From NCBI GenBank assembly GCA_963807235.1, contig CAWEBF010000033.1, positions 56,803-120,802 on the forward strand: a DNA stretch of 64,000 nt, in the 5' to 3' direction. This document shows positions 10,684 to 46,796 of the stretch, in pieces. The stretch is from an uncultured Acidobacteriota bacterium (lineage in GTDB: Bacteria; Acidobacteriota; Vicinamibacteria; Vicinamibacterales; UBA2999). How positions within the stretch are numbered: position 1 is the stretch's first letter; the number at the start of each line of letters is the position of its first letter. Below the pieces are notes generated by a model that did not search any database, was not told the origin of the DNA, and saw only the letters and a list, made by a program, of their open reading frames with translations. The translations under genes were made by a program, and so were the position numbers.

Positions 10684-10948
10684 TTGACGCTACCCCGGCT
10701 CATTTCTTGGCCGGTCCTGGACCGGTCAAAAAAAATGTGAAAGACGTCATTCTCCGTGCATTTTGCGACCAGTCCACCATCGGGTCCTGTCGTGCTAACG
10801 CGCGGGGCCAGAACCCTGGCTTGAAGCCTTATCGGCGTCTCGCCGAGGCCGGCGCACGAATCATCCGCAACAGACTGATGCCAAACAACTTATCAACCTA
10901 ACACATCCGGCTAACTGGGCCGGTACGGACCCTGCCATTACGGGAAGC

Positions 10949-11179
10949 ATGGAGCAAACGGAAACCCCCCAACTCAATGACCCGAAGAGACCCTCCATTG
11001 CGCTGCCGGAAACGCTTGGCCGCAGCGTGTCCCTGGAGCAAGCGGCCCGACTGCTGCGTGTGTCGCGCCGGACCATCTACAACCACATTCGCGATGGGCA
11101 CCTGATCACCATCCGGACTTACGGGTCCCAGCGCGTTCTCGTGGAATCGCTGCAGTCCTATACCAGCCAATTCTCGTAG
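10949..11179 (+). CDS. Small helix-turn-helix DNA-binding protein (excisionase/MerR-type HTH)
   Basis: 76 aa. The HTH segment SLEQAARLLRVSRRTIYNHIRDGHLITIR is typical of excisionase-family domains. Confidence 0.7.
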   Translation: MEQTETPQLNDPKRPSIALPETLGRSVSLEQAARLLRVSRRTIYNHIRDGHLITIRTYGSQRVLVESLQSYTSQFS

Positions 11180-11201
11180 ACGTTAGAACGGAGCAAGCCT
11201 T

Positions 11202-12627
11202 ATGTCGCTTCTTTCGCGCCGGGGACTCCTAGCCACTGCAAGCCGCCTTCTGGCGGTCGCGTCGTGCATGGCCATTGTGGCCGCCAACGACGCCGCCGCT
11301 CAGGGCCGGCGCGCGCGGCTGTCGGAAGACCTGGAGCAGAAGATTCAGGCGGGCGATGCGCGGCCGACGTCGGTGATTCTGACGGGCAGCCAGGCCAAGG
11401 TCGACGAGCTGGCAGCGCGGCACGGGCTGCGCGTGGCGCGCCGGTTGGACGGCGGAGCGGTGACTGGACGTCCCGGCAGGCGCCCTGGCGGCCTTGTCGC
11501 AGGATGGCGAGGTTGATCAGCTGTCCGGCAATTCGATCGTGCGGTCCATGATGGCCGTGACGAACGAGGCGATCGGCGCGGCGCTGTTGCAGGGCTCGGG
11601 CCTTGGCCCGCGCGCCCTGGTCGGTCGCGGCATCGGCGTTGCCGTGATCGATTCCGGCGTGGCCAACCTACCCGAACTGCGCCCCCGAGTGGTGGCCAGC
11701 GTGGACTTCACAGGTACCAACACGCTCGACGAGTTCGGCCACGGGACGCACGTGGCGGGCATCATCGCCGCGCGTGACAACGACTCGCACGGCGTCGCAC
11801 CTGGTGCGCACATCGTCAGCCTGAAGGTGATCGACGGCAGCGGCTCGGGCCTTGTCGGCAACGTGATTGCGGCACTGGATTGGGTTGTCGCCAACAAGGA
11901 CCGCTTCAACATTCGCGTCGTGAACATGTCGCTGGGCGCGCCGGTGCTGCAGTCGTGGCGCGACGACCCCCTGTGCCAGGCCGTGGAGCGCGCGTATCGC
12001 GCCGGCGTCACGGTGGTGGCTTCCTCCGGCAACCGGGGCAAGATGCCGGAGCCGGACGGCCGCACCATCTATGGCGGCGTCACCACCCCCGGCAACTCCC
12101 CCTATGCGATCACGGTGGGCGCGCTGAACACCAAGGGCACGGCCGCGCGGTCCGACGACGTGATGGCGACCTACAGCAGCAAGGGCCCCACGCGGTTCGA
12201 TCACCTGATCAAGCCGGACCTGTCGGCGCCCGGCAACAAGATCGTGAGCCTGGCCGCGCCTGGCTCCCGCCTGGTCACGGAGCACCCTGAGCTGGTGACG
12301 CGTGATGGCGGCCGGCTGCGGCTGCAGCTCTCAGGGACCAGCATGGCCGCCGCCGTGGTGTCGGGCGCCGCCGCGCAGGTGCTGCAGGCGTTGCCGACCG
12401 CCACGCCGCTGAACCTCCGCGCCCGCCTGCAGTTCGGCTCTGAACCGATGCCCGGCGTGGGACTGGTAGTGGGCGGCGCGGGAAGCTTGAACGTGATCGG
12501 GGCGTTGGCCGCGCCGCGAACGGGCACCGTGAACATCGCCGGTGAGCCTGTGAGATTTGGTGCGACCGTTATCGCACACACGTTGGTCTACGGCGATACA
12601 TTGGTCTACGGCGACACGCTGGTCTAG
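11202..12627 (+). CDS. S8 (subtilisin-like) serine peptidase with I9-like propeptide; one frame break, C-terminus runs into a tandem repeat
   Basis: ORF 11202..11516 carries a Tat-like SRRGLL signal and the propeptide. ORF 11494..12627 carries the triad contexts VAVIDSGV, HGTHVAGII and SGTSMAAAVVSG. The frame switches near 11460-11466. The ORF ends at a TAG inside repeat unit 3. Confidence 0.85.
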
Positions 12628-13002
12628 GGGACACCATGGTCTGGGCGGACACCATCGTCTAGGGCGACACGATGGTCTGGGCGGACACGATCGTCTGGGC
12701 GGACACATCTGGTCTCGGCGGACACCCTCGTCTAGGGCGGACACGATCGTCTAGGGCGACACCCTGGTCTACGGGCGACACCCTGGTCTACGGCGGACAC
12801 CATGGTCTACGGGCCGACACCATGGTCTACGGGCGACACCATGGTCTACGGGGACACGATCGTCTACGGGCGACACGCTGGTCTGGGCCGACACCCTGGT
12901 CTACGGGGACACCCTGGTTTACGGCGGACACCCTGGTCTACGGGCGACACCCTGGTCTACGGCGACACGCTCGTCTACGGGGACACGCTGGTCTATGGCG
13001 AC
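12578..13002. repeat. Tandem array of about 23 units of 17-20 nt (GTCTACGGSGACACSCTG, coding VYGDTL when 18 nt)
   Basis: Read directly from the sequence. Units start at every GTCTAC/GTCTGG/GTCTAG. Four units carry TAG. The last frame ends ...YGDTLVYGDTLVYGD-TAG at 13003-13005. Confidence 0.9.
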
Positions 13003-13654
13003 TAGAGGCCTCTTCGAGCCACGAAGGTGAAATGAGCTACAGCGAAAACCGAGACGTAAGTGCCAGTTGCGCTAACGCTTACGCTTGGAGCAGTCGATAG
13101 ACCGTCTCTGAGACGGCCTTGACTGCCTTTCGCAATATCGCACGCCAGGCTTATCCGATCGCCGCAATCTGCGTCGGCGGCTCAGTCCTGGACTCCGATT
13201 CGGCGCTCAGAACCGGCGAGCCCCGCCAGGAGTGGCATGGCTGGTTCTCGTTGGACTAACGATCTCTGGCGGGTTCGTTCACCGTAACCCTTCCTGCTCT
13301 GCCCGGTAAGTTGTCCGCTATCTGAAACATTCATCCTCACCGCGGCGCTCCTGTTTGGCCCCTCAGCGGCAGCAATAACAGTTTCGTTGATTCCTGGCGA
13401 TTGCCTTCTGGTCCCACGACCGCCAGAAGCACACCCGCCCGGTTCCTATTCAATGTTGTCGCTCCTGCGACAGCGATTAGGCTCGCAGCCGAGGTGTTTT
13501 TCTGGACCACGGGCCTCCGCGCTGGCGAGATTGGAAGGGTCAACACAGGTGGCTTGTCTTGGCGATTCTGGGACTCGCATTCCTGTACTTTGCCTCCAAC
13601 ACCTTTTAGTCGCTGGAGCAATGGTCGCGGATCGAGGTAGCGCGGCCCTCAAGA

Positions 13655-15068
13655 TGTGGCGACGCAATCTGCCGGTCGTAAGTGTCAACTACTCGTCGGC
13701 GCGTTCATCGCTATGTTCCTCGTTGGATACATTGACGAAGTTAACGTTGCTGTCCTCGGGATCGTCATTCCGGTGCTCATCGTTTCTTACGTGACGTTCA
13801 AGACCTCGATCGGACAGGTTAGATGATGCTAACCGTCACGTCAGCCAGATTAGTGACCTCTATCTCTCTACCATCGAGGCCTTGGCCATGGCTGTCGACG
13901 CCAAGGATCAAATTACGCATGGCCACATCCGCCGAGTCCAAGTCTTTGCGACCCAACTTGCGCAAAGGACTTGGCGTTCACGACGATGCGCAGCTAAAAG
14001 CAATCGAAACAGCCGCATTACTTCATGACATGGGAAAGCTCGCCATTCCCGAATTCATCCTCAACAAGCCGGGGAAACTAACGGTTGCCGAGTTCGAGAA
14101 GATGAAACGCCATGCAGACATCGGCGCAGACCTGCTTTCGTCCATTAGCTTTCCCTATCCCGTGATTCCGATCGTCCGCCACCACCACGAGAACTGGAAC
14201 GGCACAGGCTATCCTTCAAAACTAGCCAGCCACGATATTCCTCTAGGGGCGCGCATCTTATCTGTCGTCGATTGTTTTGACGCGCTAACATCCGATCGTC
14301 CGTACCGCCCGAGAATGTCAGATGACGAGTCGTTCCGCATTCTGCGTGAGCGCAGTGGTTCAATGTACGATCCACTCATCGTCGACACATTCATTCAGGT
14401 CTTCCCTGAAATAGCGCCGGCCGCGATCCGTGCGGGACAGCAGGCACGCAGCTTGGTTCCAACCTTCTCACCAAACAAGCGTCCTGCCGCGCTGGAACAG
14501 ATCCGGTCGAACGCCGCACAGTCGTCAGTGCTTGGCGAACTCGGGCCAGCCGTGCTCCACACGAGTTCGTTGCAGGAGGCGATGGAGGTAACTGGCCAGT
14601 ACCTCGGCATGCTGACGCCAGCCACGGTCTGCGCTCTGTTCGTTCTTGAACCAGACACGAACACGCTAATCTGTACTCATTGCGTTGGCGACAACGCAGA
14701 CCTTCTCAAGGGACTGGCAGTGCCTCACGGCGAGCGCACGACAGGCTGGGCCGCGGCCCATGAGACCGTGATGGCGAACTCTCCCGCGACTCTTGGACCT
14801 CGAAGAACGAGCTGGCCGCTTTAGTCCCCCACTCCAGTCGGCCTTCGTCGCTCCCCTTCGATCGCGAAGGCAAGGTTGTGGGGGCGCTTGAGCGTCTATT
14901 CCGCTTCGCCAAGCCCGTTCTACTGACGACCATCAGTACGTGATTGAGCGAGTCGCCTCGACGTTTGAGGAGTGCCTCGAACTTCACCGAAGTCCGGGTG
15001 GCACGAAATCAGAAGTCGGTATCGGAGTCGGCGTGTCGAAGGCATCGGTTAGATTGCAGACGGGATAG
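13655..15068 (+). pseudogene. Membrane-anchored HD-GYP (c-di-GMP phosphodiesterase-type) + C-terminal GAF-like protein, multiply frameshifted
   Basis: The protein is spread over three frames. TM helices LLVGAFIAMFLVGYID..VAVLGIVIPVLIVSYV lie at about 13680-13790. DLYLSTIEALAMAVDAKDQITHGHIRRVQVFATQLAQR lies at 13850-13965 in a second frame. ORF 13823..14824 gives LGVHDDAQLKAIETAALLHDMGKLAIP...HHHENWNGTGYP...DCFDALTSDRPYR, followed by GAF-like pieces to the TAG at 15066-15068. At least 5 frame changes are needed. More TM-like segments upstream (from about 13290) may belong to it. Confidence 0.6.
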
Positions 15069-15117
15069 GATCGGCGATCAATCTGGCCGGGCACTTTCCT
15101 GGCCAGTTCGGAGCGCC

Positions 15118-16224
15118 ATGATCCTGAGTTATGACGCCGCTTTAAAGCTATATCGCTCTGGCGAATTCGGCGCCCTGAGCAAGTCTTTCGGGGCTGCAAA
15201 CCCGAACGACAGCCGACTGGAGCCTCAGCTTCGTGTTCTCGTTGCCCATGGCTTGGTTCGCGTAGGCAACCCCGATCGGGCGCGCGAACTCCTGTCTCCT
15301 GAACTAGTCGCCAATGCGCCAATCGCCCTGCGAGCGAGGGCCCAGATTGTTCTGGGGCTCGCGAGCCGAGCGGCCGGCGAGTTCAACGATGCGCTAGCAC
15401 AACTCCAACTCGCTGTAAGGCTTAGTCAGTCACAGCCCGACCTTGAAGAGGCGGCGTGGGCGCAGCTGCATCTGCTTCGCCACATGTTGGATGCAAGCAA
15501 CATAGAAATTCCGCAGGCAATGCTTCCAACCGTGCGGGCAGCTGTTCGAAAAGCTGGGTCACCTCAGACGACAGCGTACCTGCACGTTGTGATCGCTTTT
15601 CTCGAGGGGCGAAGAGGTCGCTTGGATGAGGGCTCGAGACACTGTGCCATCGCTGATGGTGTTCTCAAACTGGCTCCGCATGCATGGTTGCAGTGTGGCG
15701 TTCTGAGGAACCAGGCATCAATCGCTCTCGCTGGCTGTCGCCTGCACGATGCGCGCTCTGCGATCTCCGCGGTGAACAAGATCGCACGAGACCACCTGCT
15801 GACTCGCGAGCTCGTCGAGAACGACGCCAACCTTGGCTATGTTCAGCTGCTTACGGGCGACTACAGACGCAGCGCGCAGACATTGACCCATGTCCTTGAG
15901 TCGCCGAATACGTCGATGCGAGCGCGACTCGCCGCCCTTGAAACGCTTGCTCGCGTTTATCTCGCATCGGGAGACTTGGACAGCTGTGAGAAGTGTCTGG
16001 ATAGGATCGCATCCGAGGCGGCACGCCAATCCACCCAACTACACTCCTACACCACACGATGGGCAGCAGTCGCGAGAGCGAGACTTCTTCTAAAGCGTGG
16101 AGACTTTGAGTCTTCACTCGAACACTTGACGAATGCGGAAGCTAGGGGAGACGGCGGAGCCGATTTCCAGTCGGTCGGCAACCCGCAGCCTGGTCAAGAG
16201 TCAGGCTCTCGCGAGATTGAGTAG
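15118..16224 (+). CDS. All-helical TPR-like protein; C-terminus uncertain (frame-abuts the downstream sigma-54 activator)
   Basis: ORF 14944..16224; the plausible start is ATG 15118 (MILSYDAALKLYRSGEF). Helical repeat pairs run throughout. After about 16135 the plausible sequence continues in ORF 16133's frame (LGETAEPISSRSATRSLVKSQALARLSRHAEAALRLLDAERDG...) up to about 16360. Confidence 0.55.
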   Translation: MILSYDAALKLYRSGEFGALSKSFGAANPNDSRLEPQLRVLVAHGLVRVGNPDRARELLSPELVANAPIALRARAQIVLGLASRAAGEFNDALAQLQLAVRLSQSQPDLEEAAWAQLHLLRHMLDASNIEIPQAMLPTVRAAVRKAGSPQTTAYLHVVIAFLEGRRGRLDEGSRHCAIADGVLKLAPHAWLQCGVLRNQASIALAGCRLHDARSAISAVNKIARDHLLTRELVENDANLGYVQLLTGDYRRSAQTLTHVLESPNTSMRARLAALETLARVYLASGDLDSCEKCLDRIASEAARQSTQLHSYTTRWAAVARARLLLKRGDFESSLEHLTNAEARGDGGADFQSVGNPQPGQESGSREIE

Positions 16225-16361
16225 ACATGCCGAGGCTGCACTGCGTTTGCTAGATGCTGAACGCGACGGCGCCACGGGTCATGGCGATCTTCAAGGACAG
16301 TATTACTGTGCGGCCGGTTGCGCCGTAGGAGCTTCGAACACGCTACTGGCACATCAGCTGC

Positions 16362-17810
16362 GTGTCGCGTGCACAAAGGCTTTGGGCCCATCAAGGCATT
16401 GCGTCGCTCGAGCGGGAGATGGAAGACATTTCGCCGCGTGTCGCCCGACGCACCAAACAACAGGGTCCGGCCACGGCGATCAATGCGCTCGGAAGCGCGA
16501 TCGATCTCGCGCACAGTCCGCGGCTCCTGGCAGAAGAGATCGTGCAGGTTCTCGACGAAGTCAACGTCAAGAGCGCCGTCGTCGCCGGCGCGTCTGCCGA
16601 GAGCTCCGGGGAGGGCATTTCCCTATCCGTGGGCTCCGATGGCGGCAAGCAGATCACGGTTACGTGCGAGATGCCTCAGACGCCAGAACAGGCGGTCCTG
16701 ATGCAGGACATCCTTCGTGTGGGCCGGGCTGCGGTGGAACTCGAACGCTATCGAGAAGACGAGCGGCGGCGGACGGCATTGTGGCCGGAAGATCCCATCG
16801 AAGAACAGCTCGGCGCGCTCTTCATCTCGGAGGAGATGCGCGAGCTCTTGGCCACCGTTCGGCGCATCGCCGCCACCACCGTCCCGATTCTGATCACGGG
16901 CGAAACGGGCACAGGCAAGGAAGTGGTCTCACGCCTGGTCCATGCCTATTCCCAGCGCGCAAGAGCGCCGTTCCTGGCCTTCAACTGCACATCGACGCCG
17001 CGAGACATGCTGGATTCGCAGCTCTTCGGACACCGCCGGGGAGCTTTCACCGGAGCCGTGGAACACTTTCCCGGCATCGTCCGCACGGCCGACCGGGGCA
17101 CGTTGCTTCTGGACGAGATCGGCGACATGCCGCTCGACGTGCAGCCCAAACTGCTCCGATTCCTCGAATCAGGCGAGGTGCACCCGATTGGCGAATCGCG
17201 CCCTGCGAAGGTGGACGTTCGAGTACTGGCCGCGACCAACACGCGCTTGGAAACGCTTGTCTCACAAGGGCAGTTCCGCGAGGACCTCTACTACCGCTTG
17301 AACATCGTGGAACTGGTGATTCCCCCACTGCGTGAACGACGCGTGGACATACCTTCTCTCGCCAATCACTATCTGAAGAAGCACGCCCACGAATACTCCA
17401 AGGGAGAATTACGGCTGGCGGAAGACACGATGGAGTACCTGCTGCTCTACAAGTGGCCGGGCAACGTTCGTCAGCTGGCTAACGAGATGCGCCGCATGGC
17501 CGCGGTGGCTGAAACCGGGGCCGTGCTCATGCCCGAGCACCTGTCACGCGATATCGCAGCTTCTCGCCGGACTGTGCCGGTCGCCGAACGCCCCGCGGAT
17601 CCTCGAGAGCTCGTGGTGCGCGTGGATCAGCCGCTCGCCGCGGCAGTCGAGCACGTGGAGCGAGCGATGATTCAGCACGCCCTCGAGAAGTGCGGCGGGC
17701 GCGTGGAGGAGACGGCTGCGCTGCTGGGACTCTCGCGCAAGGGCCTTTACCTGAAGCGGCAGCGCTATCAGCTGGACCAGCCTGGCCCGGCGGTGCGCCT
17801 TCAGGCCTGA
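16362..17810 (+). CDS. Sigma-54-dependent transcriptional activator (bEBP, Fis-type HTH), no receiver domain
   Basis: Walker A ILITGETGTGKE, GAFTGA loop (HRRGAFTGAV), Walker B LLLDEIGDM, the R-finger region, WPGNVRQL, and the C-terminal HTH AALLGLSRKGLYLKRQR. Confidence 0.9.
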   Translation: MSRAQRLWAHQGIASLEREMEDISPRVARRTKQQGPATAINALGSAIDLAHSPRLLAEEIVQVLDEVNVKSAVVAGASAESSGEGISLSVGSDGGKQITVTCEMPQTPEQAVLMQDILRVGRAAVELERYREDERRRTALWPEDPIEEQLGALFISEEMRELLATVRRIAATTVPILITGETGTGKEVVSRLVHAYSQRARAPFLAFNCTSTPRDMLDSQLFGHRRGAFTGAVEHFPGIVRTADRGTLLLDEIGDMPLDVQPKLLRFLESGEVHPIGESRPAKVDVRVLAATNTRLETLVSQGQFREDLYYRLNIVELVIPPLRERRVDIPSLANHYLKKHAHEYSKGELRLAEDTMEYLLLYKWPGNVRQLANEMRRMAAVAETGAVLMPEHLSRDIAASRRTVPVAERPADPRELVVRVDQPLAAAVEHVERAMIQHALEKCGGRVEETAALLGLSRKGLYLKRQRYQLDQPGPAVRLQA

Positions 17811-17817
17811 GGCCAGC

Positions 17818-17994
17818 TCAGGAGGCTGGATCCTTCTGGCGCGTCTTGACGATGCCGCCCATCAAACCGATGCCGATGATGACCAACGCTCCGGCGACGA
17901 TCCATACCTGACTCACGCCCAGCCGGTTCGCACCATAGGCAAGCCCTGCCACAACAAGGAGCGTACCGACCAGGTAGATGACCATGTTAGTCAT
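17818..17994 (-). CDS. Small (58 aa) two-helix membrane protein, hypothetical
   Basis: Below the ORF-track length cut-off. The reverse strand reads MTNMVIYLVGTLLVVAGLAYGANRLGVSQVWIVAGALVIIGIGLMGGIVKTRQKDPAS, then a stop at 17818-17820. Confidence 0.4.
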   Translation of the reverse strand: MTNMVIYLVGTLLVVAGLAYGANRLGVSQVWIVAGALVIIGIGLMGGIVKTRQKDPAS

Positions 17995-18229
17995 ACGTTT
18001 TCACTCCAGCTGTCAAAGAGTGCAAAACAGTCGCCAACATATCGCTGAGCTGCGGGCGGCGAGGTTAGCGGAGGCTCGAAACGTCGTGCAGTTCGCGCAA
18101 CCCTCAGAAAAGCGAGACAGTGCAGGTTTGACGATCGTCCCGATCTGATTGGGCATCGAGAACGAGACTTTGTTCGCCGCCACCGACGCGCCTTCCACGC
18201 CGTCGCGCCAAAACACTCCGAAAAACCAC

Positions 18230-18244
18230 TGGCACTGAAGCTGC
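18230..18244 (+). promoter_or_regulatory. Candidate sigma-54 (-24/-12) promoter
   Basis: TGGCAC-tgaag-CTGC matches 9 of the 10 fixed positions of TGGCAC-N5-TTGC. It lies 41 nt upstream of ATG 18286, and a GGAG RBS sits at 18276-18279. Confidence 0.5.
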
Positions 18245-18285
18245 CCTGTTAGAAGGTGGAGCGCAACAACGCGCCGGAGCACACG

Positions 18286-18943
18286 ATGCGTCAAACAGTG
18301 AAGGTAATTTCGATCGTCACGATCGCGGTCACAGTGCTAGTCGGACTCACGACGGCCGCCAGCGCGGCGCCCGTCCTGATCGTCAACGCCGGCTTCGAAG
18401 CACCGAGCCTCGTCGACAGCCAGGCCATCTTCATCGCGGCCGGGTGGGTAAGCGCCGGGGATTCGGGAACGTTCGATCCGCACGCGGCCGCCCTTTCGGC
18501 CGGCGCGCCTGAAGGGGAGAACGTGGCCTTTGCGAGCTTCGGCGGTCCCACCATCTCGCAGGTGCTGACCACCGCGGCGCAAGCCAACACCCTGTACACG
18601 CTCACGATGCTGGTCGGCGCGCGAAACTCGCATGGACGCAGAGCAGGAGACGGCTTTCGGCGGCTACCAGGCCGAGCTATGGGCCGGCGGCGCCATGCTG
18701 GCGCAAGACAACGATTCGCTGTTCCCGGACGAAGGCCAATTCCTGATGTCCACGGTCCAATACTTCGTGGCCTCTGGTGATCCGGTGGTTGGCTCACTCC
18801 TGGAGATTCGTTTCCGGTCGCTCGGCTACCAGACCCTGTTCGACGATGTGCGACTGGACGCCATCGAACGCGTGCCGGAACCGGCACTGCTCGCTCTGCT
18901 CGGCCTCGGCTGTGCGGCGGCCGCCCGCCGGAAGCGCCGCTAG
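18286..18943 (+). CDS. PEP-CTERM sorting-domain protein, one frame break
   Basis: The signal peptide MRQTVKVISIVTIAVTVLVGLTTAASA and IVNAGFEAP... lie in ORF 18256..18780. The frame switches near 18630 to ORF 18632..18943. That piece ends VPEPALLALLGLGCAAAARRKRR, a PEP motif followed by a TM helix and an Arg cluster. Confidence 0.75.
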
Positions 18944-18955
18944 ACAGCACCACAA

Positions 18956-18985
18956 ATCATCCGCGCCGGAATGTGCGCGGATGAT
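18956..18985 (+). terminator. Strong stem-loop after the PEP-CTERM gene (no U-tract)
   Basis: ATCATCCGCGC-cggaatgt-GCGCGGATGAT is a perfect 11-bp stem, 13 nt after the stop at 18943. Confidence 0.4.
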
Positions 18986-19100
18986 GCGCGCGAAGGTCGC
19001 CCATACGGGCGAAGGGTGGGTCATTGAGGGCCCACCCCGCGCGCACCTTCCGCCCGAACGATCAACGCACTGATGCGCGCGATGTAAGATCCGCACGACT

Positions 19101-21070
19101 GTGCGGACAACCGTAGCTGCGCTCGCAGCGCTTCTCACCTTGGCGACCGGCCCCAGCCTGGTGGGACAGGACCGGGCTGCCTGGTCGCCGCGCAACGCCA
19201 GCTACGACATCGACGTACGGCTGGATCACGCCGCGCGCACGCTGGCCGGCCGCGCCACTATCCGCTGGCGCAACATCTCCAACCGCCCGGCCACCGAGCT
19301 GCAGTTTCACCTGTACTGGAACGCGTGGCGGAACAACGACTCCACCTGGCTGCGCGAACGCAAGCTGACCGGCGCGCGCGATCCGCGGCCCGAGTCCTTC
19401 GGCTCGATCGACATCTCGGCGCTCCGTGTGCGCACGCCCAACGGCGCGTGGGTCGACGCGAAGTCGCGCGTGCAGTTCATCGCGCCCGACGACGGGAACA
19501 AGGACGACCGCACCGTGCTGCGCGTGCCGCTGGATCAGCCCGTGCCGCCGGGAGGCAGCGCCGAAGTGAACGTGGAGTGGGCGGCCAAGGTGCCGCAGCC
19601 CTTCGCCCGCACCGGCTACGTCGGCGACTACTACTTCATCGCCCAGTGGTTTCCCAAGCTGGGTGTGCTGGAGGACGAGGGCTGGAACACCCACCAGTTC
19701 CACTCGGCCACCGAGTTCTTCGCCGACTACGGCATATACAACGTGGCCATCACCGTGCCCACGCGGGTTCGTGGTGGGCGCCACGGGCTGCTCCACCGAT
19801 CCCGTGCCGCCGTCCACGCCGCCCTGCGCCACTCGCCGGGAAAGGACAACGGGGACGGCACGACCACGCACCGGTTTCGCGCGGAGGACGTCCACGACTT
19901 CGCCTGGACGGCCAGTCCCGACACCATCGACCTGACACGGCACGTTCCAGCATCCCACCCTGCCGTCGGTGCAGGTGCGCCTGCTGCTGCGGCCCGAGCG
20001 GCGCGATCAGGCGGAGCGCTACTTCGCCATCGTGGACGCCACGCTGCGGCTCTACGGCGAGTGGTTCGGCGCCTATCCCTACGGCTACGCCACAGTGGTC
20101 GATCCGGCGTTCCAGAGCGAGAGCGACGGGATGGATACCCACCTTCTTCACCGGCCGCGGGCGATGGCTGGCGCCCGCCACCGTGCAGACGCCGGAGATG
20201 ACCACGGCGCATGAAGCCGGGCACCAGTGGTGGTACGGCATGGTGGGCAGCAACGAGTTCGAGCACGCCTGGATGGACGAAGGGCTGAACACCTACGCCA
20301 CGGCACGCGTGCTGGACGAGGTCTTCTCGCCCAACTACGTGGAGCAGCGCTTCTTCGGCACGTTCATTCCCGTGGCCCATCAGGGGCGTGACCTTCGGGC
20401 GGCTGGACAACGACCGCCTGACCGGCTATCGCGACAACGCAGAGGCCGACGTCCAGTCCACGCCCACCTGGCGCTACTGGCCGTCCACGGCCACGTTCAT
20501 CTCCTACAACAAGACGGCGCTGTGGCTGCACACGCTGGAGCGCCATCTGGGCTGGCCCACCGTGCAGAAGATCCTCGCCACCTACTTCGAGCGATGGAGA
20601 GTTCCGGCATCCGAAGCCCGAGGACTTCTTCGCCGTCGTGAACGAGGTGAGCGGCAAGGACCTGACGTGGTTCTTCGACCAGGTGCACCGCAGCTCCAAC
20701 ACGTTCGACTACGCCGTCCAGGATCTGCGCAGCGACAGGCTGCCGTCGGGCGGGTATCGCACCAGCGTGATCGTGCGGCGGCTGGGGGAGGCGACGTTCC
20801 CCGTGGAGGTGGTCACCACCTTCGAAGGCGGCGCGCAGGCCACCGAGCGATGGGACGGGCTGGATCGCCGCGTGATCTTCCAGTACGACCGTCCGGAACG
20901 GGCCTCGTCCGCGGCCGTGGACCCGAAGCGCGTGCTGCTGCTGGACGCCCACTACACCAACAACAGCAAGACGCTGTCGCCGCGGTCCGGGGAGGCCGAG
21001 CCTGAAATGGGCGCTCACCTGGATGGTGTGGCTGCAGCAGCTGATGCTGTCCTACGGCTTCTTCGCCTGA
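19101..21070 (+). pseudogene. M1 family (gluzincin) aminopeptidase, about 7 frame changes
   Basis: Pieces lie in ORFs 19101..20201, 19663..19935, 19969..20214, 19325..20641 (HEAGHQWWYGMVGSNEFEHAWMDEGLNTY, i.e. HExxH+E), 20388..21005 and 20638..22092. An unlisted frame ends SLKWALTWMVWLQQLMLSYGFFA-TGA at 21068-21070. Confidence 0.85.
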
Positions 21071-21075
21071 GATGG

Positions 21076-22092
21076 GTGGCGTGTACCACGGCGTGGCTGG
21101 ACGGCTGGCGGCGCGTGCGGCACGCGCCGGCAATCCTGCTCGGCGTGTTCGCGCTCACGTTCGCGGCGGCCGTGCCCTTCGCCGTCGTGATGCGCAACGC
21201 GTTGGCGTCGCATCTGGGCGGCAGCCTCGAGGCCGCCACCGCGGCTGAGGGCGCGAACTGGAACTGGTGGCAGGAGTTCATCTCGCAGGCGTCGGGGCTC
21301 GGCGCCACGTTCACGCCACGCATCGTGGGGTTCGCGGCCACGCTGGATTCCGTGAGCGCCATCCTCGATGCACGCCGCGAAACCACGGCCCTGTTGGGCC
21401 TGCTGGCTGGCTATCTGGCGCTCTGGATGTGGCTGCAAGGAGGCATCATCGACCGCTACGCCCGGCAGCGCCCCACGCGGGCGCATGGCTTTGCCTCGGC
21501 CAGCGGCGTGTTCTTCTTCCGGTTTCTCCGTCTGGGCGTGATGGCGGTCGTCGTGTACTGGTGGCTCTTCGCCTACGTGCACCCGTGGCTGTTTGACGGG
21601 CGCTACACCGACCTGACGCGCGGACTCGACAGCGAACGCGTGGCCTTTGCCTGGCGCGCCGCCTTCTACGCGCTGTTCGGGCTGTTGGTCGTGGCCGTCA
21701 ACGTCTCGTTCGACTACGCGCGCATCCGCATGGTGGTGGAAGACCGCCGCAGCGCCATCGCCACGCTGGCCGCCGCCGTGCGATTCATCCTGCGGCGGCC
21801 GGGCGCCGTGGCCGGCTTGTGGGTGGCCAACGCGCTGGTGTTCGTGGTGCTGGCGGCGGTGTGGGCACTCGTCGCGCCGGGCGTCGTGTCGTCCGGTCCA
21901 ATCATGTGGCTGGCCTTCCTGGCCGCGCAGCTCTTCGTGCTGGCTCGCCTGGCATTGAAGCTCCAATTCCTGGCGTCGCAGACATCACTCTTTCAGGCCA
22001 GTCTGGCGCACGCGCGGTACGTCGCCTCGCCGGTGCCGCGCTGGCCGGAATCACCGGCGGTGGAGTCCGTGACGTATTCTGGAGTTCAGTGA
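21076..22092 (+). CDS. Polytopic integral membrane protein, hypothetical
   Basis: Distal part of ORF 20638..22092. A GTG at 21076 sits just after the M1 stop. There are at least 6 hydrophobic helices (ILLGVFALTFAAAVPFAVV, LLGLLAGYLALWMWL, VMAVVVYWWLFAYV, ...). I recognised no motif. Confidence 0.6.
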   Translation: MACTTAWLDGWRRVRHAPAILLGVFALTFAAAVPFAVVMRNALASHLGGSLEAATAAEGANWNWWQEFISQASGLGATFTPRIVGFAATLDSVSAILDARRETTALLGLLAGYLALWMWLQGGIIDRYARQRPTRAHGFASASGVFFFRFLRLGVMAVVVYWWLFAYVHPWLFDGRYTDLTRGLDSERVAFAWRAAFYALFGLLVVAVNVSFDYARIRMVVEDRRSAIATLAAAVRFILRRPGAVAGLWVANALVFVVLAAVWALVAPGVVSSGPIMWLAFLAAQLFVLARLALKLQFLASQTSLFQASLAHARYVASPVPRWPESPAVESVTYSGVQ

Positions 22093-37090: not shown

Positions 37091-37106
37091 TGGCACACTC
37101 ATTGCT
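37091..37106 (+). promoter_or_regulatory. Consensus-perfect sigma-54 -24/-12 motif upstream of infA
   Basis: TGGCAC-actca-TTGCT matches 10 of 10 fixed positions and lies in the 108-nt intergenic region. The predicted start is near 37117, with an AAGGA RBS at 37120-37124 and the TTG start at 37134. Confidence 0.45.
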
Positions 37107-42324: not shown

Positions 42325-42996
42325 CTAGCGGCGGACGCGGCGAAGCCGGCGAGCAGTGACCGCCAGGCTGATGCCGAAGAGCGCCAGCAGCCCCGGCTCG
42401 GCCACCGCTTCGGTGGTGAACTGCCCGTAGAGCGCCGCCGTGTTCGACCCGCCCTCGGGCGACTGGAACACGCTGCCGAACGTGATGCCCCCGTCGATCG
42501 AAAACCCCAGCAGGTTGAAGAAGTAGATGTCCAGGCCAACCGTGATCGGGATGTTCACCAGCGGCGTCGTGATGGTCACGATGTCGTCGTCGGCTGGCGA
42601 CGTGCCGGTGAGATTCGGAGTCTCGTCGTGCGCGAACGGAAACACCGCCGCCACCAGCACCGGTGCGCCGTTGGTGTCGAACCCGAACGCCAGATCCACG
42701 CCGGTGAGGTTCGGCACCGGGATGACCTCGTTGAAATGGGTGAACACGCCGAGCAGGATCGGCACGCCGGTGGTGGCACCGAGGATGTCCGCGGCGGCGG
42801 CGAAGCTGTAGCCGCTGTCGGGCGCCAGCCCGTCGCCCCAGGTAATGGTCGAGGTGCCCGTTCCCGCCACGGCAAGCCCGCCCACAGGGTTTTGCCAGAC
42901 GCCGCTGATATTGGTGATGTCGAGAGGCGCCGCCGAAGCGGCGCCGGCCGTGAGCCACACGGCCAGGAATGCGCCAAGAGCTTTCGTTTGAGCCAT
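42325..42996 (-). CDS. PEP-CTERM sorting-domain protein (THxN-type)
   Basis: ORF 42325..43044; the start is MAQTKALGAFLAVWL at 42996. It has a signal peptide, the internal motif FTHFNEVI, and the C-terminus VAEPGLLALFGISLAVTARRLRRVRR. Confidence 0.8.
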   Translation of the reverse strand: MAQTKALGAFLAVWLTAGAASAAPLDITNISGVWQNPVGGLAVAGTGTSTITWGDGLAPDSGYSFAAAADILGATTGVPILLGVFTHFNEVIPVPNLTGVDLAFGFDTNGAPVLVAAVFPFAHDETPNLTGTSPADDDIVTITTPLVNIPITVGLDIYFFNLLGFSIDGGITFGSVFQSPEGGSNTAALYGQFTTEAVAEPGLLALFGISLAVTARRLRRVRR

Positions 42997-43081
42997 GTCC
43001 GTCGTCCTCGCGTGACCGCGCACGCGGGAAGCGTGGGGGTACACCGCTATAAACGACGTCTTGCCAGGAAACGAACGGGCC

Positions 43082-46000
43082 CTACACGTGCGGCGCGTCC
43101 ACCGTCTCGAGCAGGTGGTCGAGCCACAGGTTCGACAGCTTCTCCTGCACGGTGTTCTGCCGCAGACGCGCGTTGAGGTTCGGGAAATCCACCCGGTCCA
43201 TGTGCTGATCCTGGTTGAAGCACGAGAAGACGAACTCTTCCCTGCCCGTCACCGGATCCACGTGCTTCTGCAGGCACTGCGCGCACACCTCTTTCATCAT
43301 GCACTGCATGGGCGAGTTGATGCTGGCGATACCGACATGCGCCGGGTTCAGATATGGCGCCAGCACGCCGTGGCGCGCGGCCTTCACGGCGGCCATCATG
43401 CGATCCGAACCGATGGCAATGATGCGCGACACGTTCAGCAGCGGCACTTTGGTTTCGCCCAACTCGCCCTTCGCGTACGCCACCATCGCCTGCACGATGT
43501 TGCCGCGGAAGTGCGTGTCCTGCGGCCGCCCCGGCGTGATGGGCGTCCCCAAGTCGGTGCTCCACACCACCTGATCGGGGGAGGACTCGATCTCCTCGCG
43601 CTTGTAGAGGTCCTCGCCCTTCCTGTAGCCGGCGAAGTAGACCACGCGGTTGCCATGCTGCTTGAGCGCCTTGGCGATCGAGAACAGCACGGCATTGCCC
43701 AGGCCGCCGCCGGCCAGCAACACGTCCTCGCCGTGCGGGATCTCCGTCGGCGTGCCGGTGGGGCCCATGACGACCACCGGCTCTCCCGGCTTGAGGTACG
43801 AGATCAATCGGCTCGAGACGCCCATCTCCAGGGCGATCATCGACAGCAGGCCCTTCTCTTTGTCCACCCACGCGCCGGTGAGCGCCAGACCCTCCATCAA
43901 GAGCGGCGGCTCACCCGGCACCCTCGCGTGCGTCGCCAGCGCCTCGAAGTTCTGCAGCCTGTAGAACTGCCCAGGGCTGAAATGCCGCGCGGCGGCCGGC
44001 GCTTTCACCACCACCTCGACGATGGTCGGTGTGAGCCGCGCCACCCATTCCACGGTCGCCAGCAGCTCGCCGTCGAGGCGCTCGACCAGGCGAGACCACG
44101 CCGCGTCGCGGCCCGCCTGCGCGTCAGCGCCGGCGGCCACGGCGGCATCGTCGAACAGAGCCACGACGTGCGGGTAGCCGTGCTTGGCAGATGCCATGGC
44201 CTTCACGACGTTGCCCGCATACGCCGGATGGTTGTCGCCGTAGTAGGAGATCAGCCGGCCGTTCTCGTTGTAGGAGGTGAAGAAGCCGCCGGGATCCGGC
44301 ACGAGCGACAGCGCACCGTTGGCGCGCTCGGCGCGGAAGCCCTGGAAAAAACGCTTCTTCGAGTCGAGCTGGAACGTGTGCGGCCGCTCCTTCTCATAGA
44401 TGATGTTCGGCGACGTGCCCGCCGCCACCAGGACCGTGCGTGCCGGCAGCTCCACCGGGCCCGAGGGACCGACCATCCGAAGCGCGTGGACGTGATCGTG
44501 CTCGTCGGCCACGATCTCGCGCGGGTCCAGGTTCTCCGCGAACCAGATGCCTTCTTCGAGCGCCTTCGCCACTTCCTCGTGGTTCAGGCGATAGGCTGGC
44601 GAGTCGGTCATCTTCTTGCGATAGGCGAGCGTCACGCCACCCCATCCCCGGACCAACGGCACGAAGTCGGGCGCTTCGCCCGCCGCCTCGGCGCGTTGCC
44701 GCTCGGCGCGGACCGCCCGGCCGTGCGCGAGGAACTCATCCAGGATGATCAGCTCCTCGGCATCACAGAGGGCACGCACGGCTTCGGCGCCCTTCTCGGC
44801 CACGAGCACCTCGTACCGGTCCAGCGTCTTCTCCACCTGAATCGGGTAGTAGGCGAAGAGTTCGGTGGCCGTGTCGATGCCCGTCAGTCCGCCGCCGATG
44901 ACCACCGCGGGCAGCCTTGCCTGCAGGTTCGGCAGCGCGTTGCGCTTGAAAGCCCCCGTCAGCTGCAGCGCCATCAGGAAGTCGCTCGCCTTGCGGACGC
45001 CGCGGACCAGGTTGTTCTTCATCTCGATCACGGTCGGCTTGCCCGCGCCAGATGCGATGGCGATGTGATCGAACCCGTGCGCCCAGGCATCCTCGATCGG
45101 CATCGTGCCCCCGAAGCGCACGCCGCCGTAGATGCGCAGGCGGTCGCGGCGCGCGAGCGTGAGGTGCAGCAGCGTCAGGAAGTTCTTGTCCCAGCGCACC
45201 GTGATGCCGTATTCGGAGACGCCGCCGAAGCCTTCCAGTACCCGCTCGTCGAGCCTCGAGTAAATGTCGTCCCAGCGCTCGATCGGCTGCGGCACCGCTC
45301 TATCAGGCACCGCTCTATCAGACAGCGTGCCTCTCTCGCCGGTCAGGTGCGGCGGCAGAGGCTCGATCTTCAGCCCGTCGATCGCCACCACACCGAAGCC
45401 TTCGTTCAGGAGGTAGTGCGCCAGCGTGTAGCCCGCGGGTCCCAACCCCACCACCAGCACGTTGCGCCCGTTGTAGGGCAGCGCGAACGGCCGCTTCACG
45501 TTCAGGGGATTCCATCGCGTCATCAGGCCGTACATCTCGACGCCCCACGGCATCCGCAGCACGTCGGTCAGCACGCCGGTCTCGATCTGCGGGATGTTGA
45601 CCGGCTCCTGCTTCTGGTAGATGCAGGCCTTCATGCAGTCGTTGCAGATGCGGTGACCGGTGCCGGGCACCATGGGGTTGTCCACCATCACGATGGCCAG
45701 GGCGCCGATCACGTCGCCCGCCTTCCGCACCATGTGCATCTCGGAGATCTTCTCGTCGAGCGGGCAGCCGGACAGCGGAATGCCGAGCGGGTTGGAAACG
45801 ACGGTGCCGGTTTTGTCCCGGAGGCCCTTCGAGCACGAGTCCTTGTCGCGCTCGTGGCACAGCACGCAGTAGTGCACGTGGTCCAGCACCTCGCGTGTGC
45901 CCCACCGCGCGTCGGTCAGGCCGAACCCGTCCCGGCGGCGAAGCAGCTGGTCCGGCCCGATCATCGCTTCGCGCAGGTCGGCTCGTGGCCGCTGGACCTG

Positions 46001-46747: not shown

Positions 46748-46796
46748 CGCGCGCCAGACTCCACGCGCGGCCCGCTAGTTCCCGGCCAGCGGCGCC

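What the first reader, a model, noticed from the sequence alone, without database searches (positions are those of the whole stretch)
15118..18943. Receiver-less TPR/sigma-54 activator module directly upstream of a sigma-54-promoted PEP-CTERM gene
The activator:
- 16362-17810 encodes a bacterial enhancer-binding protein (GETGTGKE, GAFTGA, C-terminal Fis-type HTH).
- It has no receiver domain.
- Instead it has about 150 aa of unassigned, possibly GAF-like, sequence.

The TPR-like ORF:
- Immediately upstream is an all-helical TPR-like ORF of about 400 aa.
- Its plausible reading continues, after a frame switch near 16135, right up to the activator's first codon (about 16360) without a stop.
- The sensor may therefore be a TPR domain fused to, or coupled with, the activator.

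The promoter and its target:
- 420 nt downstream of the activator, TGGCAC-tgaag-CTGC (18230-18244) matches the -24/-12 consensus at 9 of 10 positions.
- It lies 41 nt before the ATG of a PEP-CTERM protein.
- A second PEP-CTERM gene (2036-2260) has a similar motif.
- The third (42325-42996) does not.

Described PEP-CTERM/exosortase loci use a PrsK/PrsR two-component pair plus the TPR protein PrsT. Here the same ingredients (sigma-54 and TPR) appear in a different, kinase-free architecture, next to an HD-GYP/GAF gene. This may be an undescribed one-component regulator of exosortase cargo.
Basis: partly seen in the sequence, partly recalled or inferred. Interest (0 to 1): 0.6.

Follow-up and report, generated by a model that had tools for sequence, protein, structure and literature searches.

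The report
TPR-fused sigma-54 activator beside PEP-CTERM gene
The "TPR ORF" and the "activator" are one ~896-residue receiver-less sigma-54 activator with a TPR sensor arm, split here by two single-base frame errors; it sits in a conserved protease / c-di-GMP-phosphodiesterase / activator cassette next to a PEP-CTERM surface-protein gene with a strictly conserved sigma-54 promoter, and no member of this family has been studied.

Summary
Window 15118-17810 encodes one TPR / small alpha-beta domain / AAA+ (GAFTGA) / Fis-HTH enhancer-binding protein. Two +1 frameshifts (~16177, ~16364) break it. The repaired 896-aa protein aligns end to end with 12 intact 891-909-aa metagenomic homologues. The frameshifts are probably assembly errors: neighbouring genes carry many more, nearly all +1, whereas the short-read-style relatives are intact.

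The -24/-12 site CTGGCACTGAAgCTGCC (18229-18245) is invariant in four diverged lineages, always upstream of the HpiC1-like PEP-CTERM gene. A second conserved sigma-54-type promoter (18036-18020, minus strand) faces a 58-aa membrane ORF. A third candidate precedes the upstream operon.

The family-wide partners of this activator are a secreted S8 subtilase and a MASE9-HD-GYP-GAF protein. The PEP-CTERM gene accompanies it only in the closest clade. The protein is not PrsR, and its TPR arm is not PrsT. No exosortase, rpoN or prsK/R/T gene lies in the window.

Best reading: a one-component TPR-gated activator that drives the adjacent sigma-54 promoters. It is a new variant of a known kind, of moderate interest.

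The parts
10921..10936 (+). Candidate sigma-54-type promoter (CGGTACGGACCCTGCC) in front of the HTH_17/S8 - HD-GYP/GAF - activator operon
   Evidence: It aligns with TGGCATGGACCCTGCG in L086 and TGGCACCAAGTCTGCC in L094 at the same place (A4). It is weak in the window (2 mismatches). In the window and L086 the -12 element is only 14 nt from the ATG.
10950..13002 (+). HTH_17 (excisionase-type) plus secreted S8 subtilase, frameshifted here. Its 3' end is an 18-nt tandem array (12584-13000) encoding hexapeptide repeats.
   Evidence: tblastn with the L086 and L094 S8 proteins; Pfam on the intact relatives; Tandem Repeats Finder; signal peptide and repeats seen.
13110..15047 (+). MASE9 - HD-GYP - GAF protein (about 640 aa in relatives), heavily frameshifted here
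   Evidence: Pfam HD_5 at E 4e-37 on the intact piece. tblastn shows frames 3, 1, 2, 3. The frameshift-aware alignment places ~14 shifts. Relatives are 640-645 aa with MASE9, HD_5 and GAF.
15118..17810 (+). One gene for an 896-aa TPR-sensor sigma-54 activator, broken by +1 frameshifts at ~16177 and ~16364
   Evidence: Identity to full-length homologues is 47-74% (A2).
15118..16424 (+). N-terminal TPR-like superhelix (repaired residues 1-435, about 22 helices)
   Evidence: The AlphaFold2 model has pLDDT mostly 80-97 here. Best solved folds are MalT domain III (1hz4, TM 0.63) and Rap (4gyo, TM 0.67). Pfam finds TPR families.
16467..16778 (+). Small alpha/beta domain plus a long linker helix (repaired residues ~450-553), possibly a reduced GAF
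   Evidence: Models. Foldseek top hits are GAF domains (KdpD 4qpr, E 0.19, prob 0.93; Nlh1 GAF), not significant. There is no Pfam hit.
16827..17573 (+). Sigma-54 interaction AAA+ domain (GETGTGKE, GAFTGA) and lid
   Evidence: Pfam Sigma54_activat at E 3e-63 and AAA_lid_14 at E 3e-21. The motifs are invariant in A2.
17646..17768 (+). Fis-type HTH (HTH_8) DNA-binding domain
   Evidence: Pfam, E 4.5e-13.
17818..17994 (-). 58-aa two-helix membrane ORF, divergent from the PEP-CTERM gene
   Evidence: It is 95% identical in protein to L002 and L004, and the DNA differences are mostly at third codon positions. It is also called on the P0001 contig and in L100.
18020..18036 (-). Sigma-54-type promoter TGGCGACTGTTTTGCAC, whose last base lies 25 nt upstream of the small ORF's ATG
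   Evidence: It is unique in the window, with 0 expected. The same pattern sits at the same place in L002-L005 and in L100.
18120..18175 (.). Conserved upstream blocks: GTGCAGGTTTGACGATCG (18120-18137; candidate activator site) and AGACTTTGTTC (18165-18175; candidate bending-protein site)
   Evidence: These are the only blocks conserved in all four lineages apart from the promoter (A1 and A10). AGAYTTTGTTC is unique in the window. Function is not shown.
18229..18245 (+). Sigma-54 promoter CTGGCACTGAAGCTGCC of the PEP-CTERM gene
   Evidence: It is invariant except for one spacer base in the window, L001, L002-5 and L100. No sigma-70-like site occurs in 17700-19150.
18286..18943 (+). HpiC1-like beta-sandwich protein with signal peptide and PEP-CTERM anchor; one +1 frameshift at ~18628
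   Evidence: Pfam HpiC1-like positions 2-99 and 100-174 are split over two frames, and PEP-CTERM is present. TIGR02595 scores 24.5 bits.
18956..18985 (+). Stem-loop directly after the PEP-CTERM gene stop (11-bp stem)
   Evidence: The fold is -22.7 kcal/mol, z -1.6. Sequence and position are conserved in L001 and L002.

Best explanation
Window 15118-17810 is a single gene for a cytoplasmic, receiver-less bacterial enhancer-binding protein.

Domains. A ~435-residue N-terminal TPR superhelix resembles the sensor domains of MalT and Rap. It is followed by a small, possibly reduced-GAF domain and a long helix. Together they replace the usual receiver domain as the regulatory module. The rest is a standard GAFTGA AAA+ motor and a Fis-type HTH.

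Proposed mechanism. The HTH binds upstream sites in the ~190-bp region between two divergent sigma-54 promoters (18036-18020 on the minus strand and 18229-18245 on the plus strand). When the TPR module receives its signal it allows, or stops blocking, hexamer assembly. ATP hydrolysis then opens the sigma-54 closed complexes. This turns on the HpiC1-like PEP-CTERM surface protein and the divergent 58-aa membrane protein. It probably also turns on its own operon (S8 subtilase, HD-GYP/GAF, activator) from a third sigma-54-type promoter.

Signal. It is unknown. It is probably linked to the two invariably co-located proteins, an exported subtilase and a membrane MASE9-HD-GYP-GAF c-di-GMP phosphodiesterase.

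Status of each step.
- Shown: the fusion, the domain content, conservation of the promoters and the gene neighbourhood.
- Inferred: that this activator serves these promoters, that the TPR arm gates the ATPase, and what the signal is.

Frameshifts. The two in the gene are most likely assembly errors.
For: Fusion. Twelve intact 891-909-aa homologues cover the TPR part, the frame-2 linker and the activator. The repaired window protein aligns with no gap at either junction.

Activator features. Sigma54_activat at E 3e-63; GAFTGA and Walker motifs invariant; HTH_8 present; no receiver.

N-terminal fold. The model is confident and matches MalT-III and Rap.

Promoters.
- The -24/-12 17-mer is invariant in four lineages whose activators are 55-75% identical, within intergenic DNA that is ~60% identical.
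- A second conserved sigma-54-type site faces the small ORF.
- A third candidate lies upstream of the S8 operon in the window, L086 and L094.
- No sigma-70-like promoter lies nearby.

Neighbourhood. HD-GYP/GAF is adjacent to the activator in every locus with flank. S8 is adjacent wherever enough flank exists.

Precedent. PEP-CTERM genes as single-gene sigma-54 units with an upstream activator site were described by Haft et al. 2006 (PMC1569441). RpoN dependence of a PEP-CTERM gene has been shown experimentally (PMC9850573).

Frameshifts as artefact.
- At least 14 shifts lie in 10.9-21.1 kb by tblastn, all +1.
- The frameshift-aware alignment finds mostly +1.
- The short-read-style relatives fetched (k141_, JGI Ga) are intact, apart from one lineage cut by an IS3 element, whereas the related long-read-style contig L100 is also riddled with +1 shifts at different positions.
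Against: - No experiment and no binding site links this activator to these promoters. No conserved dyad was found, and shared k-mers upstream were no better than expected from so small a set.
- More distant family members keep the activator but not the PEP-CTERM gene, so that gene is not the ancestral target.
- rpoN and exosortase were not seen in the window.
- In the window and L086 the candidate S8-operon promoter is only 14 nt from the ATG, which would mean an almost leaderless transcript.
- The frameshifts are clustered: long intact ORFs exist elsewhere, for example 43082-46774. Genuine decay of this locus in this organism is therefore not excluded.
- The AAA+ part of the model has low confidence.
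Confidence: 0.55

Rival explanations
1. Partner-controlled activator. The TPR arm is a docking surface for the neighbouring HD-GYP/GAF protein, or for a product of the S8 protease, rather than a ligand sensor. The phosphodiesterase's state (membrane signal, c-di-GMP load) would be passed to the AAA+ motor by protein-protein contact, as NifL controls NifA or FleN controls FleQ.
For: HD-GYP/GAF is adjacent in all loci with flank, usually 28-57 nt upstream on the same strand. TPR domains are typical protein- or peptide-binding modules, and Rap-type receptors are among the best fold matches. The two genes share an unusually low GC in every lineage.
Against: Adjacency alone also fits simple co-expression. 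In L091 and on the P0016 contig the HD-GYP gene is on the opposite strand. No interface was tested.
Confidence: 0.25
2. The adjacency to the PEP-CTERM gene is incidental. The conserved sigma-54 promoter at 18229-18245 would be served by another activator elsewhere in the genome, for example a PrsR-like response regulator. The TPR activator would control only its own S8 / HD-GYP operon or unlinked genes.
For: Family members at 38-50% identity keep S8 and HD-GYP but have no PEP-CTERM gene nearby. A sigma-54-type site precedes the S8 operon. Only 64 kb of the genome is visible.
Against: In every lineage that has the HpiC1-like gene, it lies directly downstream of this activator, with the promoter and upstream blocks conserved. 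In L001 only 172 nt separate the two genes, and all conserved upstream blocks fit inside that space.
Confidence: 0.15
3. The locus is a genuine decaying relic in this organism. The frameshifts in S8, HD-GYP, the activator, the PEP-CTERM gene and the M1 peptidase are real, and none of these genes works here.
For: Frameshifts are concentrated in 10.9-21.1 kb, while several long ORFs elsewhere are intact. The gene is also found disrupted naturally by an IS3 element in another lineage (L097-L099).
Against: - Nearly all shifts are single-base insertions, the opposite of the deletion bias expected for bacterial pseudogenes (established knowledge, not tested here).
- No premature stop was seen in the repaired activator.
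- Identity to intact relatives stays at 74% overall and is far higher in the C-terminal half.
- An unrelated long-read-style contig shows the same +1 pattern at other positions.
- Truncated Pfam domains elsewhere in the window suggest patchy errors along the whole window.
Confidence: 0.2

Closest known systems
PrsK/PrsR/PrsT PEP-CTERM regulatory system of Proteobacteria (Haft et al. 2006, PMC1569441); RpoN-dependent pepA in Aquincola (PMC9850573)
   Same: A single PEP-CTERM gene sits behind a long intergenic region with an upstream conserved block and a -24/-12 promoter, driven by a Fis-HTH sigma-54 activator.
   Different: - There is no receiver domain and no adjacent histidine kinase.
- The activator scores 285 bits against the PrsR model (cut-off 502.6).
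- The TPR part is an N-terminal cytoplasmic domain of the activator, not a separate lipoprotein like PrsT.
- The conserved partners are an S8 protease and an HD-GYP/GAF protein.
Receiver-less enhancer-binding proteins with sensory N-termini: NorR and NifA (GAF), XylR and DmpR (V4R), FleQ (c-di-GMP), RtcR (CARF)
   Same: One-component logic: an N-terminal sensor domain gates a GAFTGA AAA+ motor that is followed by an HTH. There is a possible reduced GAF next to the motor, and a link to c-di-GMP enzymes.
   Different: The sensor is a ~435-residue TPR superhelix, which I did not find described for any studied activator in the paper library searched. By inspection, the FleQ c-di-GMP contacts as I recall them (the Arg of LFRS and the Asn after Walker A) are replaced here (GALF[I/V/L]S; SRL).
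MalT / STAND regulators and RRNPP (Rap, NprR, PlcR) receptors
   Same: A TPR/SUPR sensor superhelix, the best structural match (1hz4, 4gyo), is coupled to an oligomerising or DNA-binding output.
   Different: - The domain order is reversed relative to MalT.
- The ATPase is a sigma-54-type AAA+ domain, not a STAND NTPase.
- The output goes through sigma-54, not sigma-70.
- No signalling-peptide gene was identified.
Large uncharacterised sigma-54 regulators in NCBIfam, such as the GPMC system transcriptional regulator (NF038230, 935 aa)
   Same: A similar overall size, with a long non-receiver N-terminus ahead of the AAA+ domain.
   Different: The score is only 143 bits against a cut-off of 1200, and only over the AAA+ domain. 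This protein is not a member.

Membership tests
Bacterial enhancer-binding protein (sigma-54 activator) | AAA+ sigma-54 interaction domain with Walker A/B and the GAFTGA loop | tested here: met
   Pfam PF00158 at E 3e-63. GETGTGKE, DEIG and GAFTGA are invariant in A2.
Bacterial enhancer-binding protein (sigma-54 activator) | C-terminal DNA-binding HTH | tested here: met
   HTH_8 at E 4.5e-13.
Bacterial enhancer-binding protein (sigma-54 activator) | A cognate -24/-12 promoter and sigma-54 (rpoN) in the genome | tested here: inconclusive
   Conserved -24/-12 sites lie next to the gene. rpoN was not found in the 64-kb window, and the rest of the genome is not available.
PrsR (PEP-CTERM-box response regulator, TIGR02915) | N-terminal receiver domain and a score above the family cut-off | tested here: not met
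   There is no receiver domain. The score is 285 bits against a cut-off of 502.6, and the match covers only the AAA+ and HTH part.
PrsT (PEP-CTERM system TPR lipoprotein, TIGR02917) | [quoted passage not shown] | tested here: not met
   The TPR region has no TIGR02917 hit among NCBIfam results. It begins MILSYDAALK with no signal peptide and is fused to the activator.
PEP-CTERM / exosortase cargo | C-terminal PEP-CTERM sorting domain after a signal peptide | tested here: met
   TIGR02595 scores 24.5 bits (cut-off 16) and Pfam PF07589 24.3 bits (cut-off 20.7). The C-terminus reads VPEPALLALLGLGCAAAARRKRR.
PEP-CTERM / exosortase cargo | An exosortase (EpsH/XrtA family) in the same genome | not testable with these tools
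   None was found among the window ORFs scanned. Three PEP-CTERM genes in 64 kb make one likely elsewhere in the genome.
MalT-like TPR sensor (PF17874) / STAND | TPR_MalT domain above cut-off, joined to a STAND NTPase | tested here: not met
   TPR_MalT scores 34.8 bits against a cut-off of 45 in the window. The fold is similar (1hz4, TM 0.63), but the ATPase is of the sigma-54 AAA+ type.
GAF domain (the ~150 'unassigned' residues) | GAF fold or profile match | tested here: inconclusive
   There is no Pfam hit. The model has three strands rather than the five or six of a GAF domain. The top Foldseek hits are GAF domains, but at E 0.19-0.8.
FleQ-type c-di-GMP-binding activators | The Arg of the LFRS motif and the Arg-Asn pair after Walker A | tested here: inconclusive
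   By inspection of A2 the equivalent residues are GALF[I/V/L]S and (S/A)R(L/I/T). The FleQ residues are recalled from the literature, not aligned here.

The most novel reading that the evidence does not exclude
The exported S8 subtilase, the membrane MASE9-HD-GYP-GAF phosphodiesterase and the TPR-gated sigma-54 activator together form a previously undescribed three-part signalling pathway. An extracytoplasmic proteolytic or envelope cue would be converted, through c-di-GMP turnover or direct contact with the TPR arm, into sigma-54-dependent expression of exosortase-sorted surface proteins. This would be a kinase-free functional counterpart of PrsK/PrsR outside the Proteobacteria.
Probability: 0.2. 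Interest if true: 0.7.

Novelty: new variant of a known kind. Interest (0 to 1): 0.45.

Why it matters
Haft et al. 2006 worked out how PEP-CTERM/exosortase cargo is regulated only for Proteobacteria (PrsK/PrsR), and stated that other regulators remained to be found. Here there is a concrete candidate with a testable promoter pair. It belongs to a modest family: 465 cluster representatives among 1.84 billion proteins, 55 of them at E <= 1e-30.

A TPR superhelix as the gate of a sigma-54 AAA+ motor would add a new class of input domain to enhancer-binding proteins. The invariant pairing with an HD-GYP/GAF enzyme also suggests a new route from c-di-GMP signalling to sigma-54.

There is a practical lesson too. 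The apparent 'two ORFs' are an error-induced split, and gene callers have produced similar fragments of this family in public catalogues.

Tried and rejected
- **Species-genome scan with the full-length alignment.** No taxonomy or genome-wide context was obtained.
- **Activator binding site.** An inverted-repeat scan of the intergenic regions found nothing conserved. Enumerating 9-mers shared across six upstream regions gave only GC-rich or 4-of-6 matches, which I do not regard as significant. GTGCAG-type boxes at about -110 and -145 remain candidates only.
- **Motif counts as evidence.** TGGCAC-N5-TTGC with 1 or 2 mismatches is at or below chance in the window. This rules out motif count as evidence for PEP-CTERM gene 2.
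- **The in-gene match TGGCACATCAGCTGC (16347-16361).** It encodes the conserved peptide LAHQL and recurs in L086 for that reason. It is not a promoter.
- **Anti-phage defence reading (PADLOC).** The S8 protein gives generic subtilase/IetS hits and the activator matches RtcR-type models only through its AAA+ domain. There is no IetA or CARF partner, so this reading was rejected.
- **Rfam and tRNA scans of the window.** Nothing was found.
- **GC3 frame plot for locating frameshifts.** It was too crude and was replaced by tblastn and a frameshift-aware alignment.
- **Literature searches for a TPR-containing enhancer-binding protein.** Nothing relevant turned up.

Full report
**1. What is in the sequence**

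Three same-strand reading frames follow one another between 15118 and 17810.
- Frame 1 (15118-16224) is all-helical and TPR-like.
- Frame 2 stays open across 16133-16361.
- Frame 3 (16362-17810) carries Sigma54_activat (E 3e-63), AAA_lid_14 and HTH_8. It has GETGTGKE and GAFTGA and no receiver domain.

I joined the three frames into one conceptual protein. The N-terminal 573 residues of it were used to search the protein collection. The search returned eight proteins of 891-898 aa that cover 100% of the query at 48-62% identity, and further ones of 894-909 aa at 37-39%. All carry the sigma-54 domains downstream.

In the 13-sequence alignment the repaired 896-aa window protein runs end to end with no gap at either junction. 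It is 47-74% identical to the others (A2). A frameshift-aware protein-to-DNA alignment places the two shifts at ~16177 and ~16364. Both are +1. The 'TPR ORF' and the 'activator' are therefore one gene.

**2. Are the frameshifts biological?**

I ran tblastn with the proteins of intact relatives. Every gene from 10.9 to 21.1 kb is collinear with them but changes frame in +1 steps:

| Gene | Frames |
|---|---|
| S8 subtilase | 2, 3, 1 |
| HD-GYP/GAF | 3, 1, 2, 3 |
| Activator | 1, 2, 3 |
| PEP-CTERM gene | 1, 2 |
| M1 peptidase | 3, 1, 2, 3, 1, 2 |

. The finer alignment finds even more shifts, again mostly +1.

- Long ORFs elsewhere are intact, for example 43082-46774. Truncated Pfam domains (DHDPS, BPD_transp_1, Pkinase) nevertheless show that errors occur patchily along the whole window.
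- The short-read-style relatives fetched (k141_, JGI Ga) have intact genes, apart from one lineage cut by an IS3 element (section 7).
- L100 is a contig with long-read-style naming, ~75% identical in DNA to the window. It has the same genes broken by +1 shifts at different positions.
- The insertion bias, the absence of a premature stop in the repaired activator and the high residual identity all point the same way.

I judge assembly error about 3-4 times more likely than real decay.

**3. Anatomy of the protein**

The AlphaFold2 model on A2 is confident for residues 1-435, with pLDDT mostly 80-97. This part is a superhelix of about 22 helices. Its best solved matches are MalT domain III (1hz4, TM 0.63) and Rap receptors (4gyo, TM 0.67), both of which are ligand- or peptide-sensing TPR domains.

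Residues ~450-553 form a small alpha-alpha-beta-beta-beta domain followed by a 30-residue helix that leads into the AAA+ core. Foldseek puts GAF domains first (KdpD, Nlh1), but at E 0.19-0.8.

A phmmer search with the N-terminal 563 residues of P0001 against 1.84 billion representatives found 465 proteins at E <= 1e-3, 207 at E <= 1e-10 and 55 at E <= 1e-30. Full-length members are ~880-930 aa. This is a real but modest family known only from metagenomes.

**4. Promoters**

*PEP-CTERM gene promoter.* TGGCACTGAAGCTGC (18230-18244) is no more than chance by count. However, CTGGCACTGAANCTGCC is invariant upstream of the HpiC1-like PEP-CTERM gene in L001, L002-L005 and L100, inside intergenic DNA with a mean column identity of ~61%. 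The conserved ATG follows 41 nt later. A conserved stem-loop follows the stop codon. No sigma-70-like site lies nearby. This is the layout Haft et al. described for proteobacterial PEP-CTERM genes (PMC1569441).

*Small-ORF promoter.* TGGCGACTGTTTTGCAC on the minus strand (18036-18020) ends 25 nt upstream of a 58-aa two-helix membrane ORF (17994-17818). It is unique in the window, with 0 expected. It is present at the same place in L002-L005 and in L100. That ORF is 95% identical in protein across lineages, and the DNA changes are largely at third codon positions. The two promoters are divergent and enclose ~190 bp. Within it, the only blocks conserved in all four lineages are GTGCAGGTTTGACGATCG (18120-18137) and AGACTTTGTTC (18165-18175) (A10).

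*Operon promoter candidate.* CGGTACGGACCCTGCC (10921-10936) aligns with TGGCATGGACCCTGCG in L086 and TGGCACCAAGTCTGCC in L094, upstream of the HTH_17/S8 gene that heads the operon ending in the activator. This would mean autoregulation. The 14-nt distance to the ATG in two of the three loci is awkward.

**5. Gene neighbourhood across the family**

- The HD-GYP/GAF gene (about 640 aa, with a MASE9 membrane domain) lies next to the activator in every locus with flank: the P0001, P0003 and P0016 contigs, L001, L002-5, L086, L087, L089-L091 and L094-L096. It is usually 28-57 nt upstream on the same strand.
- The S8 subtilase lies just beyond it wherever the contig reaches far enough.
- The subtilase has a signal peptide and a C-terminal run of perfect hexapeptide repeats. 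An HTH_17 protein precedes it or is fused to it.
- The small ORF and the HpiC1-like PEP-CTERM gene occur only in the closest clade (window, P0001 contig, L002-5, L100). L001 has the PEP-CTERM gene without the small ORF.
- L086, L090, L091, L094 and L095 have unrelated genes downstream.

The core module is therefore S8, HD-GYP/GAF and the TPR activator. The PEP-CTERM gene is a lineage-specific output.

**6. Comparison with known systems**

- The protein meets the defining features of an enhancer-binding protein.
- It is not PrsR. It has no receiver, and it scores 285 bits against a cut-off of 502.6, no better than against NtrC, NorR or AtoC.
- The TPR arm is not PrsT. It has no family hit and no lipoprotein signal, and it is fused to the activator.
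- No exosortase, rpoN, PrsK or other HisKA gene was found among the roughly 40 window ORFs scanned. This says nothing about the rest of the genome.
That makes an exosortase elsewhere in the genome likely.
- Full-text searches found no studied activator with a TPR input domain.
- c-di-GMP-binding activators such as FleQ and BerB are known. By inspection, however, the FleQ contact residues as I recall them are not conserved here.

**7. Verdict**

This is a receiver-less, TPR-gated sigma-54 activator next to a sigma-54-driven PEP-CTERM gene. It is better described as the output end of a conserved protease / HD-GYP / activator cassette than as a rearranged PrsK/R/T system.

It is a new variant of a known kind. 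Interest is moderate (0.45). The architecture and the cassette are uncharacterised and directly testable. Against that, automatic annotation already labels such proteins, the link to the promoters is inferred, and the 'split' that drew attention is probably a sequencing artefact.

One natural disruption of the gene does exist: an IS3 insertion at about residue 375 in L097-L099.

Noticed in passing
window 10900-21100; also L100 500-5300: There is a pile-up of frameshifts in five consecutive genes: at least 14 by tblastn, all +1, and about 30 by frameshift-aware alignment, mostly +1. Several long ORFs elsewhere in the window are intact. A related long-read-style contig shows the same pattern at other positions.
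   Followed up: partly
window 12584-13000; L094 5700-5944; L086 1680-1956: An 18-nt tandem array (22.6 copies, 81% matches) lies at the 3' end of the S8 subtilase gene. In relatives it encodes perfect hexapeptide repeats: GIIWSD x13 in L094 and GDTFVW x15 in L086.
   Followed up: partly
window 17818-17994 (minus strand) and 18020-18036 (minus strand): A 58-aa two-helix membrane ORF is 95% identical in protein to L002 and L004, although the flanking activator is only 69% identical to that of L002 (P0002). It has its own conserved sigma-54-type promoter and no family match.
   Followed up: partly
window 37091-37105 (plus strand): This is the only perfect TGGCAC-N5-TTGC match in the window. It lies ~30 nt upstream of a TTG-initiated ORF whose N-terminus (LSKDDLIDMQGTVVAVHSGGLYRVQCDAGHEVLAQLSGRMRR) I recognise as IF-1-like. 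That ORF runs on into a DEAD-box helicase frame. The match could be chance.
   Followed up: no
window 13110-17810; L001, L002, L086, L094: The HD-GYP/GAF gene (GC 0.56-0.58) and the activator gene (0.59-0.62) are consistently lower in GC than their neighbours (0.66-0.69) in every lineage examined. The low GC belongs to the gene pair and is not a sign of recent transfer.
   Followed up: partly
L097 3383-4602, L098 3419-4638, L099 2720-3855: An IS3-family element (rve plus HTH_Tnp_1) is inserted in the activator gene at about residue 375, in three samples. It leaves a 389-aa TPR-only product (P0011).
   Followed up: partly
window 16347-16361 (plus strand); L086 5280-5295: A one-mismatch sigma-54 motif, TGGCACATCAGCTGC, lies inside the activator gene just before the second frameshift. 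It encodes the conserved peptide LAHQL and recurs in L086, so it reflects coding constraint rather than a promoter.
   Followed up: yes
window 18956-19060; L001 5885-5975; L002 6022-6110: About 90 nt of strongly conserved non-coding sequence with two stem-loops follows the PEP-CTERM gene. It stays attached to that gene in L001, where the downstream gene differs. It is probably a terminator or 3'-UTR element.
   Followed up: partly
window 42325-43044 (minus strand) and 43082-46774 (minus strand): A THxN/choice-of-anchor-K PEP-CTERM protein lies 37 nt downstream of a 1231-aa ORF whose only Pfam hit is Pyr_redox_2. The two are probably co-transcribed.
   Followed up: no
L086 7885-7900 and 7993-10704: In a relative without the PEP-CTERM gene, a GG-N10-GC site (GGGCACGGCGCGTGCT) lies ~100 nt upstream of a GAF / DUF3417 / glycogen-phosphorylase-like gene, two genes downstream of the activator. 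This could be an alternative target.
   Followed up: no
L086 4056-6746 versus P0021: The public gene call for this locus is only the C-terminal 464 aa, although the DNA holds an intact 896-aa ORF. Catalogue entries for this family are therefore sometimes truncated by gene calling, not by the sequence.
   Followed up: partly
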